Positions 1 through 63,762 of a stretch of DNA of 64,000 nucleotides are shown piece after piece. Position numbers and translations under genes: made by a program. Every line of letters begins with the position of its first letter. The stretch's first letter is position 1. The stretch lies in contig JAWMAR010000102.1 of assembly GCA_036785375.1 (NCBI GenBank), positions 4,278,001 to 4,342,000 of the forward strand, given 5' to 3'. The notes under the pieces were generated by a model. The model saw nothing but the letters and a program-made list of their open reading frames with translations. It searched no databases and had not been told where the DNA came from. Origin of the DNA: Leucoraja ocellata. Its lineage: Eukaryota.

Positions 1-6
1 CCTGAC

Positions 7-142
7 CTGTCCATCCCTTGGCATTCTCCTTGACGACAGAAGCATTGTTTTGAAGCAGCACTTCCACACATTCCAAGTGTCCAAGAGAGACGGCGAGGTG
101 CAATGGTGTCCGGCCCCGTGGATCAACTGTTTCAACGTCATG
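7..142 (-). CDS. ANKRD13A: ANKRD13A coding exon 2 (ankyrin repeats)
   Basis: Minus strand reads tccaacag|[45 protein letters not shown]+G|gtcagg. This matches the ANKRD13 N-terminal ankyrin repeat (human [23 protein letters not shown]). 136 nt. Confidence 0.93.
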
Positions 143-224
143 CTGTTGGAGAAAAGTGATGATTAATCCACATGAAGTACGAAAAAATCCATTTTGAAAA
201 TGGCTCGGTATGTCTCATCAGATG

Positions 225-4479: not shown

Positions 4480-5260
4480 CAACAACAAGGAAATGCTGCC
4501 GCACAACTGGAGGAGAGGGCGGGCGGGCGCCTCGACGCCCCTTCCAGCCGCCGCTAGCGACCTAGGCGTCCACAAAGAAACAAATCATAAAATACCCCCA
4601 CCCTTGGCTCCTTGAGGGGCCCAGAAACGTTGATTTGATGATTTGAAACGGCGATTATGTGGAAACCATCGCCGCCCCCTCTCCTCCCTGTTGCTGTGGT
4701 TAGTTCCACGTTGGTCGCATGTGTCCACAGCAGGGAACATGGGTGGCATCTAACAATTTCCACCCAGGGTGAAATCAACCTCGCCTGTGTTTTTTTGGAT
4801 TGAAAGTAGATAAATTCTGTATTTTTCCCTCACATGGTCAACAACCACCGGTGTTTCAAAGGCCCAGCGTCGTAATTGAGACTTATTATTGGCAGTGACT
4901 CCCCCTCCGGTGGTGGTAGGGCTGGGAGTAGGCGCATGCGCAGGTGGGTCCCGCCGCGCCTGGCGGTCCTCCGGTATCCCGGCATCCCGCTCGGCGTCTC
5001 CAGGCAGCCGGAGGCCGGGCTCGAGCGAGCGCGCCGACAACTCCGCTCCCGCTCCCGCTCCCCAGCCCGGCGCTTGATGGCGGCTCCCCGCTAACCTCGA
5101 GCTTTACACCGCACCATCTCTCGACGGAAACACCCCCCCCCCCCGCCAAAACAACAACAAAAAACTAACTCTGAACTTGGGGCGCGATCTTACCGGCTGT
5201 CCATGTCGAAGAGGTTAAGGAGCATCGACGTCTGCGCTGACTGCAGTGTCGCCGGTAAGT
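4480..5260. promoter_or_regulatory. CpG-island bidirectional promoter between ANKRD13A and GIT2
   Basis: GC/CpG-rich stretch between divergent ATGs at 4309 and 5203. NRF1-type palindrome GCGCATGCGC at 4932-4941, reverse CCAAT (ATTGG) at 4888-4892, GC boxes (GGGCGG) near 4517-4527. Confidence 0.8.
5203..5254 (+). CDS. GIT2: GIT2 exon 1 (ArfGAP zinc finger start)
   Basis: MSKRLRSIDVCADCSVA+G|gtaagt (human GIT2 MSKRLRSSEVCADCSGP). 52 nt. Confidence 0.96.
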
Positions 5261-61154: not shown

Positions 61155-61343
61155 CTCTTGCCGAAAGGGTAAGCCTAAGAGCATAGGGCGGCACGGGGAG
61201 AACCCTATTCTGGAAGCGGATGACCCAGATGTGGAACCAGATTCCACGCTCCCTAGTACGGAGGATGTCATTCGGAAAACCGAGCAAATCACAAAAAATA
61301 TTCAGGAGCTGTTGCGTGCTGCACAAGAAAACAAGCATGAGAG
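61155..61343 (+). CDS. GIT2: GIT2 exon 18 (start of paxillin-binding domain)
   Basis: caag|SCRKGKPKSIGRHGENPILEADDPDVEPDSTLPSTEDVIRKTEQITKNIQELLRAAQENKHE+AG|gtgaaa. 189 nt. Confidence 0.95.
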
Positions 61344-63149
61344 GTGAAATATTTACTGTTGGGTTTTTTGACTGATGTAATCAACTACAACTACTCCAGG
61401 AGTTATAAGGTGATGAAGATGTGGAGCAGGTTGTCATTAATGCTCTTGTGCTAGCTCCCTGCAGTTCATCTTAATGTCAAAACAGAGGATGGACCAATTG
61501 TCCTCCATGTGGGCGATGGGTGATATTGGGGTATTGTGTAATAGTGGTGGCACAGCTGGTAGTGCTGCAGCCTCACAGCTCCAGAGACCCTGGTTCGATC
61601 GTGACCTCGGGTACTATCTGTGTAAGTTTGCACGTTCTTGCATAGCATTGTAAAAAATGCAAATTATTTTGATTGTGTGCACTCAGTTTCAGCTCTGTAA
61701 TTTCCCATTTTACAATGTTATTTAAAAAGATCTCACCTCATTTTCCTCGTCCAATACGGCCTATGGTGGCAATTCTTTTGTATCTCCCATTTTTTTTCCC
61801 ACCCATTTCAGTGAAGCTTCATCCAACATTGGCAACCAACCAACTTTTTTCATCCTAAGCATGTTCTTCTACTTTGCAATCTCTGTGGGTGCTCCTGACC
61901 TTTCATCTTTTATTTTTTAAATCATTTTTTTTTAAACTTTGAAACCTAGATTCCAATTTGATTACAGAAGGGACATTAAACTGGTATATATGTAATTGCA
62001 GCAGTGCTTTGATATCTGTTTGCTATTCTTTTCCGCTCTACGAAACGGTGGTGTCTTTAAACATACAATTAGTTGGATGGTGAAAGTACACAGAGCAGTC
62101 TTGAAAGTGGGAATTGTTGGGAAATTTGGCCACTTGTGCCAACTCTGCTTACTGTTGAACTAATAAGAAAATGAATTTCTTATTCTTGAGGATTAAACCT
62201 GGGATTTCCTTGGACTCTCTAAGTTAATATAACTCTAATATCCAGTGAACGTCCAATTCCTGCAAGCTTATTTTCTTTTTTGCAAAAAAGGATAGCAGCA
62301 GGAGGAACTCAGCATGTCAGGCAGCATCTGTGGAGGAAGATGGATGTAACGTCAAGACCCTTCATCTCAACTGGGGACTTTTTTTTTAACTACGATTTCA
62401 CAATCTGCAGTCTCTAGTGCCTTCATTTTCTTTTCTTTTATGAATCCAGCAATTAATTTGTGGTTTTCTGAATAATGCTCCACTAGGGATTAATGCAAAA
62501 CAGATAAGCATGCAAATTGGAGATATTCCTGATCTAATTGGATTATTTCAATACCAGGCGATGGTAATGTAGTAAATCAAAGAATATTGACAATAATATC
62601 AAAGATGATGGCTTGGTAGAGTTCCTTAAGTCTGTAGTCTGCAGGAATTTGTATTGACACTGGCTTGAATCATTAAATCCAACTGTCCATGTTGGTCCAT
62701 TTTTAGAACAATACCCTTGCAAACCTCAATAGTAACAACCAAGTACTTTCTTTAAATTCATCCCTACCAGGCAATCTAACTGGAATCATTTCAGAAAGTG
62801 TGTGGTTACATGCACTCACTGGTGAGTCTTGTGTCTTTGCAGTGTTGTCTTAACTTCCGCAAGAAGTCCACTCCTCCACAGTCATTAGACATTAAATTTG
62901 TTTCGACTTTAAATAAACAAACCAATTGTGCGATGCACGTATATCGGAACTGTTGTTCTCGTCAGCTATTTGCTGTAACCCATGCTGTTTTTATTTTGTC
63001 TTTTTTTAACTTTGATTTGATTTTCGCTTTGCAATCTGAATTCATTTGTGCGATCTCTTCTTTCTCTTCTTCCTCTCCCCTCCTCTCTCTCTTTCCCTCC
63101 CCTCCCTCACCCATTTTTGCTTCCAACCCCTGCCTTCCCTACGATCCAG

Positions 63150-63284
63150 CCGGCAGATTGAACGCGAGAGCCTGCGCAAGTTGAGGCACAGCCTTGGCTG
63201 TTTCAGTACGTTGGTTCTGCGGGCCGACAAATCTTCCCTTCAGCCTCTGACCCTGCAGCAGCAGCGGCCTGACCCTGCCACCTG
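63150..63284 (+). CDS. GIT2: Candidate extra GIT2 cassette exon (45 codons) in the paxillin-binding domain
   Basis: About 100-nt pyrimidine tract ending ccag|, open frame RQIERESLRKLRHSLGCFSTLVLRADKSSLQPLTLQQQRPDPAT, then TG|gtactc. Phase 2-2, 135 nt, GC-rich and exon-like. Confidence 0.7.
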
Positions 63285-63762
63285 GTACTCTGACCTCTGT
63301 CTCTGCCTCCCAGGCACTCCACCTTTTCTCTTCTTCCCTGCATGATTGTCACTGTGGTTTGTTAAAAGTATCAAACTTTGTGGAAATAATTGATTTAGTA
63401 CCAAAAAAAACTATTGCATAGAGACCAATGGCTAAATTGCAGAATAATATATCTCAATTCCACTTATGTAATCTGAATTGATGTATGTTAAAAATTGTGG
63501 TGGATGTATACTTTATAATGCCTGCCAGGGTGTCCCTTTTTGCCTCCACTTTGGTCTGGTTTGCTTCATAAATGCAGTAACTAATTTTCATGTAAGCAAA
63601 ACAATTGCATATCTCTGGTGTGTGCACGCTGAACTGATTTAACCTGAAATGAATGTCTGTGCTTTATGCCAGAAAATAGCCAAGGGATTATTCTTAACTG
63701 TATCTAATGCCCTCGTATGGAAGATGCCTCTGTGCGGGCATGCAACGAGGACAGGATTAGAG

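What the first reader, a model, noticed from the sequence alone, without database searches (positions are those of the whole stretch)
63150..63284. Extra 45-codon exon inserted into the paxillin-binding four-helix bundle of GIT2
Seen: a very long CT tract (about 63050-63149), an open phase 2-2 exon with CpG-containing codons, a weak donor (TG|gtactc), then TGCATG 55 nt downstream (63339) and ACTAAT (63580), which are RBFOX and QKI motifs in enhancing positions. Established: canonical human GIT2 runs QENKHD-SYIPCSERI without this insert, and the junction follows helix 1 of the FAT-like domain. I recall similar LRHSLGCFSTLV peptides in fish GIT2 predictions, but this is unverified. Inference: a tissue-regulated switch modulating paxillin binding and focal-adhesion targeting.
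Basis: partly seen in the sequence, partly recalled or inferred. Interest (0 to 1): 0.7.

Follow-up and report, generated by a model that had tools for sequence, protein, structure and literature searches.

The report
Ancient two-donor exon in GIT2
This skate gene for the cell-adhesion scaffold GIT2 carries an optional exon, also present in database gene models of sharks, bony fish, amphibians, reptiles and birds, that is predicted either to add a loop to the paxillin-binding domain or, through a second splice site, to cut most of that domain off, and so likely works as a tissue-controlled switch on where GIT2 goes in the cell.

Summary
The exon is real: 63150-63284, 45 open codons, between helices 1 and 2 of the GIT2 FAT (paxillin-binding) domain. 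The peptide stands in annotated GIT2 models from chimaera to birds; its RHSLGCF core is as conserved as the folded domains (set found with this peptide, so biased). RNA of a near relative shows the skipped form (14 reads, one contig); inclusion rests on database models only. It shifts the frame, ends the protein without FAT helices 2-4, and stops 26 nt before the last junction, so it should escape nonsense-mediated decay. This form is annotated in 21 species. Two AlphaFold2 models keep the bundle intact with the insert as an unstructured loop, and the insert does not resemble helix 1, so a metavinculin-type helix swap is unsupported. No mammal appeared in three searches, but coverage was patchy. 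Tissue specificity and any effect on paxillin binding are inferred. Nine literature searches found no description. Verdict: a new variant of a known kind, already in databases, apparently unstudied.

The parts
61155..61343 (+). Upstream GIT2 exon encoding FAT helix 1 (ends ...QENKHE, phase 2); start read by eye
   Evidence: tblastn of annotated skate GIT2; donor confirmed by the RNA joint
62966..63149 (+). 182-nt AG-free zone with CU-rich polypyrimidine tract (63050-63147) and acceptor AG
   Evidence: 5 TCTT, 7 CTCT in the last 100 nt; repressor binding is inferred
63150..63284 (+). Cassette exon, donor 1 form: 135 nt, 45 codons in frame, inserted between FAT helices 1 and 2
   Evidence: skipped form in RNA
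63184..63216 (+). Conserved core of the insert (RHSLGCFSTLV), candidate docking or modification motif
   Evidence: per-column conservation in 87 sequences, motif census; function inferred
63285..63313 (+). 29-nt exon extension to donor 2 (CAG|GCACTC, a GC donor in both copies here); gives a frameshift and a stop in the next exon
   Evidence: in-silico splice reproduces the annotated tail WYSDLCLCLPALCPAQKGYMLL; same form in 25 fetched proteins of 21 species
63339..63344 (+). TGCATG, RBFOX-type motif, 55 nt after donor 1 and 26 nt after donor 2
   Evidence: present in both copies; motif name recalled; function untested
63580..63585 (+). ACTAAT, QKI-type motif; weak, compatible with chance
   Evidence: 0.44 per kb in the gene; motif name recalled

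Best explanation
This is an optional exon of skate GIT2 with two alternative ends, conserved in gene models across jawed vertebrates, and it likely works as a tissue-regulated three-way switch on the paxillin-binding FAT domain. Skipping (shown in RNA of a near relative) gives the standard four-helix bundle. Donor 1 (annotated, not seen in my reads) adds 45 residues between helices 1 and 2; the bundle is predicted to stay folded and the insert to form a flexible loop whose basic-hydrophobic core (K/R-L-R-H-S-L-G-C-F) likely adds a docking or modification site (a basophilic-kinase serine, or a cysteine for lipid attachment) that tunes targeting instead of abolishing paxillin binding. Donor 2 (annotated) shifts the frame and would give a stable GIT2 without helices 2-4, which could not bind paxillin but would keep the ArfGAP, PIX-binding and coiled-coil parts. 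Inclusion is most likely in neurons or muscle (inferred from the CU-rich tract upstream and the RBFOX-type motif downstream). The exon was probably lost in mammals (inferred, about 65%).
For: Open in-frame exon. Peptide in named GIT2 models of chimaera, sharks, rays, coelacanth, gar, sturgeons, teleosts, amphibians, turtles, lizards and birds. Core residues 675-690 have mean column identity 0.94 in 87 sequences, against 0.92 for the ArfGAP domain and 0.72 for linkers. Skipped and included models coexist in catshark, chimaera, axolotl, wall lizard, softshell turtle and medaka. Skip joint in RNA: 14 reads in run X24 and one contig in X5. Donor-2 form in 25 of 381 fetched proteins, 21 species, always ending 12 residues after the junction; read-through ORFs from unnamed contigs stay conserved to PGTV, that is just past donor 2, and then diverge. 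Stop lies 26 nt before the last junction (the 50-55 nt rule is recalled). Two AlphaFold2 models: FAT helices pLDDT about 75-94, insert under 50; Z 20.1, rmsd 2.0 over 126 of 127 residues to the GIT1-paxillin complex 6jmu_A. Paxillin LD4 binds between helices 1 and 4 (10.1101/2019.12.18.881771, passages), so loss of helices 2-4 removes the site. PAKs prefer Ser, basic residues at -2 and -3 and a hydrophobic +1 (PMC6445471, passages); S679 meets -2 and +1.
Against: Inclusion and donor-2 use rest on automated gene models, not on junction reads seen here. Conservation figures are inflated because the proteins were found with the insert as query; one turtle (Carettochelys) has a changed core, LRDSLSCF. 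No tissue labels were available. S679 has Leu at -3, so it is only a partial PAK site. Low pLDDT does not prove disorder, and the alignments were shallow (87 and 68 rows). The 12-residue tail after donor 2 is not conserved in sequence. In this genome donor 2 is a GC site with only 5 of 9 consensus matches. The M-H-E codons that imply a TGCAYG motif downstream occur only in bird-like read-through ORFs (5 sequences). Zebrafish, chicken and crocodilians were also missing from the hit lists, so the absence of mammals is weak evidence.
Confidence: 0.55

Rival explanations
1. The insert directly switches paxillin binding off, by folding back onto the helix 1/helix 4 groove or by replacing helix 1 as the metavinculin insert does in vinculin.
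For: Same position as the metavinculin insert, between helices 1 and 2 of an adhesion-protein bundle (PMC2873289, abstract and passages). The core has some helical amphipathy (moment 0.50, shuffle p 0.07). One model extends helix 1 by about 13 residues into the insert, at low confidence. In metavinculin the insert was also assumed to loop out until crystals showed otherwise.
Against: Metavinculin H1' is 56% identical to H1; the GIT2 insert has at best 2-4 of 16 identities to helix 1, no better than shuffles (85-300 of 300 shuffles as good). Both models keep helix 1 in place and the insert undocked. The core is basic, whereas LD motifs are acidic (LD4 peptide).
Confidence: 0.15
2. The conservation is at the RNA level: the exon is mainly a dosage-control (poison-like) cassette, donor 2 lowers functional GIT2, and the peptide is incidental.
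For: The 29 nt between the donors are nearly invariant from fish to birds (WYS(G/D)LC(P/L)C(L/F)P) although they are not in the main in-frame product. The tail after the frameshift is not conserved. The long last exon could still allow decay.
Against: Donor 1 keeps the frame in all lineages, with length changes of whole codons only (the second copy here has 138 nt). Conservation peaks in a short peptide core and falls in its flanks (0.94 against 0.70 and 0.69). The stop lies inside the zone expected to escape decay. No unusual RNA fold (z +1.2). Synonymous-site conservation could not be tested without other species' DNA.
Confidence: 0.15
3. The insert is a calcium-calmodulin binding segment that makes GIT2 targeting calcium-sensitive.
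For: L/F-RHS-L-GC-F-STLVP-W fits the 1-5-8-14 hydrophobic spacing after basic residues in turtle, cichlid and chimaera; the pattern occurs only 2-3 times per protein (motif definition recalled).
Against: The pattern is loose; sharks and rays, including this genome, have Arg instead of Trp at position 14; a proline precedes the Trp in bony vertebrates.
Confidence: 0.08
4. Low-level splicing noise propagated by annotation pipelines.
For: The only junction seen in my RNA lays was the skipped one; all included forms are predicted models.
Against: Sequence conservation from chimaera to birds equal to that of the catalytic domain, frame preservation, and conservation in unannotated contig ORFs that stops just after donor 2.
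Confidence: 0.04

Closest known systems
GIT2 internal splice variants (regions A-E; GIT2-short; brain GIT2 delta-BCE)
   Same: Same gene, extensive tissue-specific splicing; GIT2-short also lacks the FAT domain and does not bind paxillin (10.1101/538223, passages).
   Different: Those events lie in the middle of the protein. The passages read mention no exon inside the FAT domain. Here one exon either inserts into or truncates the FAT domain, and the central regions are kept.
Metavinculin (68-residue muscle-specific insert in the vinculin tail)
   Same: Alternatively spliced insert between helices 1 and 2 of a helical bundle in an adhesion protein (PMC2873289).
   Different: Metavinculin's insert holds a copy of helix 1 (56% identity) that replaces it; the GIT2 insert has no likeness to helix 1 and is predicted to loop out. 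Metavinculin has no second truncating donor in the passages read.
FAK+ (PWR exon 31) and other conserved FAK alternative exons
   Same: Vertebrate-conserved alternative exon next to a FAT domain; FAT-less FAK transcripts also reported (PMC1570463, passages).
   Different: Three residues placed before the domain, not 43-46 residues inside it.
RefSeq/UniRef predicted GIT2 and GIT2a isoforms
   Same: Both included forms are already in these automated annotations, the donor-1 peptide at 100% identity in three skates.
   Different: Models only; no function, tissue or regulation attached in anything I could read.

Membership tests
GIT family ArfGAP (GIT2) | ArfGAP, ankyrin, Spa2-homology, coiled-coil and GIT1_C (FAT) domains in order | tested here: met
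   Exons of the window map across annotated skate GIT2; Pfam on that protein gives all five domains over cut-off
GIT family ArfGAP (GIT2) | GIT2 and not GIT1 | tested here: met
   All named hits are GIT2/GIT2a or unnamed; a separate GIT1-like locus lies on contig C49 and lacks the exon
Alternative cassette exon | Skipped form exists in RNA | tested here: met
   GT..AG joint across the exon: 14 reads in X24, one contig in X5 (a near relative, not this individual)
Alternative cassette exon | Included form exists in RNA | tested here: inconclusive
   Present in many annotated models; no inclusion joint among the rows listed
Alternative cassette exon | Frame-preserving, canonical AG..GT ends | tested here: met
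   135 nt, phase 2-2
PTBP/RBFOX-regulated neural or muscle exon | CU-rich tract upstream and (U)GCAUG downstream | tested here: met
   motif presence only, TGCATG is frequent in this gene
PTBP/RBFOX-regulated neural or muscle exon | Tissue-biased inclusion and response to factor knockdown | not testable with these tools
   Runs carry no tissue labels; no knockdown data
Metavinculin-type helix replacement | Insert lies between helices 1 and 2 of the bundle | tested here: met
Metavinculin-type helix replacement | Insert contains a helix homologous to helix 1 | tested here: not met
   Best 16-residue match no better than shuffles in 4 of 4 proteins
Metavinculin-type helix replacement | Insert helix occupies the helix 1 position in a structure | tested here: inconclusive
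   Not seen in two AlphaFold2 models; no solved structure holds the insert
Poison (NMD-coupled) exon | Premature stop more than 50-55 nt upstream of the last junction | tested here: not met
   Donor 1 has no premature stop; the donor 2 stop ends 26 nt before the last coding junction. Absence of 3' UTR introns was not checked
PAK phosphorylation site | Ser with basic residues at -2 and -3 and hydrophobic +1 | tested here: inconclusive
   R at -2, L at +1, but L at -3; phosphorylation untested

The most novel reading that the evidence does not exclude
One exon, at least as old as jawed vertebrates, sets three states of the GIT2 FAT domain (standard, loop-extended with a new kinase- or lipid-controlled motif, and FAT-less but decay-resistant), controls in neurons or muscle whether the GIT2-PIX-PAK module goes to paxillin adhesions or elsewhere, and was lost on the mammalian line, so fish, frog and chick GIT2 biology differs from mouse and human in a way not yet noticed.
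Probability: 0.3. Interest if true: 0.68.

Novelty: new variant of a known kind. Interest (0 to 1): 0.45.

Why it matters
GIT2 reaches focal adhesions through its FAT domain. An exon that can extend or delete this domain would be a direct splicing control of where ArfGAP, PIX and PAK signalling is placed. It matters for anyone using zebrafish, Xenopus or chick to study GIT2, and, if the mammalian loss holds, it is a clear case of an ancient, strongly conserved coding exon discarded in one lineage. The conserved RHSLGCF core is an unexplained short motif with no Pfam match over cut-off.

Tried and rejected
RNA: no listed holder was on record as RNA in the run search. Of 8 runs laid, 0 showed an inclusion joint among listed rows: (4 runs) repeats crowded the tables (33 joint rows not shown) and two raw-read runs had only thin depth over the exon (mean 1.9 and 0.84 in one bin; 1-5% of each run read), 0 of 4 contig sets covered the exon. 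This is no evidence of absence. Complex prediction of the insert segment (662-697) with FAT helices 2-4 gave no verdict (0.23 against a mark of 0.34, alignment not used); not evidence either way. RNA structure around the donors: not better than shuffles. A seeming extra terminal exon in turtle and coelacanth models is the next exon read in the third frame, rejected. Homologous exon in the GIT1 intron: none by phmmer of the genome or by a 72-sequence profile. ESM Atlas: no usable hit for the insert, FAT-like clusters under 0.9 only for the domain. The top hit of the representative search, a 549-aa repeat protein at 41% over 31 residues (P0384), is taken as a chance likeness. Mammal test: 0 named mammals in 107 of 107 rows, 120 of 383 rows listed and 80 of 80 rows; the one mammalian protein met (macaque, 394 aa) ends before the FAT region. 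My first donor-2 coordinate (63312) was off by one and corrected. Earlier scan findings: none returned. A GIT review, a GIT1 FAT structure paper and an RBM20 paper were not held; GIT2 is listed as an RBM20 target in PMC8468976 (table passage) without saying which exon.

Full report
Observation. The window holds most of a GIT2 gene on the + strand; its exons map across an annotated skate GIT2 protein from residue 1 at 5203 to the last exon just beyond the window. At 63150-63284 there is a 135-nt stretch with an AG acceptor and a CTG|GTACTC donor. One of three frames is open, and spliced in silico between the helix 1 exon and the next exon it reads through to the normal C terminus. The upstream tract is 87% pyrimidine with a 182-nt AG-free zone. 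The peptide is 100% identical to models from three skates, so the genome is a skate's; I did not identify it further.

Distribution. Three word-based searches found the insert in named GIT2 or GIT2a models of chimaera, sharks, rays, coelacanth, gar, sturgeons and paddlefish, many teleosts, frogs, a caecilian, axolotl, turtles, lizards and birds. In an alignment of 87 of these proteins R677, H678, S679, L680, C682, F683 and V687 are invariant; the core 675-690 averages 0.94 column identity, the insert's flanks 0.70 and 0.69, the ArfGAP domain 0.92 and the linkers 0.72. The set was gathered with the insert as query, which inflates these values, and a pig-nosed turtle has a changed core. No named mammal was among 107 of 107, 120 of 383 and 80 of 80 listed rows. 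Zebrafish, chicken and crocodilians were missing too, and cluster representatives can hide members, so mammalian loss is likely (about 65%, helped by my recollection that human and mouse annotation lack it) but not shown. The GIT1-like gene of this genome has an intron at the same place without a homologous exon.

Alternative use. The skipped junction is seen directly: 14 reads in one raw RNA run and one contig in another run of a near relative. Skipped and included models coexist within single species: of 381 fetched proteins, 291 matched the in-frame pattern and 23 were skipped forms (25 by pattern, less two turtle proteins with a diverged insert, one read and one judged by length). Inclusion itself I did not see in reads; it rests on automated models, which as I recall are normally built on RNA-seq introns.

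The second donor. Twenty-nine bases past donor 1 lies CAG|GCACTC (63313|63314), the same in both copies in this assembly. Splicing here gives a 164-nt exon, a frameshift and the tail WYSDLCLCLPALCPAQKGYMLL, letter for letter the end of an annotated skate isoform (P0002). The stop ends 26 nt before the last coding junction, inside the zone that normally escapes nonsense-mediated decay (rule recalled; 3' UTR introns not checked). The same form occurs in 25 fetched proteins (21 by pattern, 4 by eye) from 21 species: chimaera, five sharks and rays, medaka, six amphibians, three turtles, a lizard and four birds. All end 12 residues after the junction. Unspliced read-through ORFs from unnamed contigs keep WYSG(L/F)C(P/L)CL(P/A/T)GT(V/L) and diverge immediately after, as expected if constraint ends at a working donor. 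Whether that donor is GT or GC in bony vertebrates cannot be told from protein. This product keeps helix 1 only; Pfam GIT1_C covers just positions 2-29 of 110.

Structure. Two AlphaFold2 models, skate (87 rows) and tailed frog (68 rows), fold the four FAT helices at pLDDT about 75-94 and leave the insert under 50. The skate model matches the GIT1-paxillin complex 6jmu_A at Z 20.1, rmsd 2.0, 126 of 127 residues. LD4 binds between helices 1 and 4 (10.1101/2019.12.18.881771, passages), so the site is predicted to survive the insert and to be lost in the donor-2 form. The position equals that of the metavinculin insert (PMC2873289, abstract and passages), but there the insert carries a 56% identical copy of helix 1, while here the likeness to helix 1 is no better than shuffles in 4 of 4 proteins. 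It may still act like metavinculin in the loose sense of an isoform switch in an adhesion bundle; it is not a member of that mechanism on the tested feature.

Mechanism. Shown: exon, frame, skip junction, second donor sequence, conservation. Annotated by others' pipelines: both included forms. Predicted: intact bundle with a flexible loop; FAT-less product. Inferred: tissue control by CU-binding repressors and RBFOX (architecture recalled from neural and muscle exons; five bird-like read-through ORFs carry M-H-E, whose codons must contain TGCAYG), and a role of the core as a docking or modification motif. S679 has Arg at -2 and Leu at +1, a partial fit to the PAK preference (PMC6445471, passages), attractive because GIT2 scaffolds PAK through PIX; C682 could be acylated. 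I put 0.55 on the three-state switch with a tuning loop, 0.15 on direct blocking or helix swap, 0.15 on RNA-level dosage control, 0.08 on calmodulin binding and 0.04 on noise.

What is known. Described GIT2 splicing concerns five internal regions, GIT2-short and the brain delta-BCE form (10.1101/538223, passages; PMC11963297 and PMC8456587, passages). FAK has a three-residue exon before its FAT domain (PMC1570463, passages). Nine full-text searches (the last for the peptide RHSLGCF, 0 papers) found no description of this exon; for most listed papers I saw only the listing. The library lacks most subscription papers, three papers I wanted were not held, no supplements were read, and splicing atlases could list the exon.

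Verdict. Observation confirmed, interpretation partly supported. A real, ancient, already annotated but apparently unstudied two-donor exon in the GIT2 FAT domain: new variant of a known kind, interest 0.45.

Noticed in passing
G000:C102:4021962-4106907 against window and downstream: The whole GIT2 gene is present a second time about 253 kb upstream on the same contig at about 98% identity, with one extra CAG codon in this exon. Paxillin is also doubled on two contigs at 98-99%, so this is probably an uncollapsed haplotype, not a true duplication. The GIT1-like locus appeared once.
   Followed up: partly
window 2-160, minus strand: Ankyrin-repeat coding exon of a neighbouring gene, head-to-head with GIT2; ANKRD13A by recalled human synteny, not tested.
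   Followed up: partly
window 63147-63152: Other species have paired models with and without one Ser at the start of the insert (HDSR and HDR), suggesting a tandem NAGNAG acceptor; this genome has CAG CCG there, so only one acceptor.
   Followed up: no
proteins P0060, P0268, P0358, P0362: Coelacanth, turtle and medaka models enter the penultimate exon in the third reading frame, hinting at further minor donors or acceptors in this intron.
   Followed up: no
G000:C49:1151698-1154423, minus strand: GIT1-like FAT exons with the same intron positions as GIT2 and no homologue of the insert exon.
   Followed up: yes
protein P0384 (unnamed, JGI/IMG): A 549-aa protein with about seven 48-residue repeats resembling the insert core weakly (LRQSNPCFGTL, 41% over 31 residues); taken as chance.
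   Followed up: no
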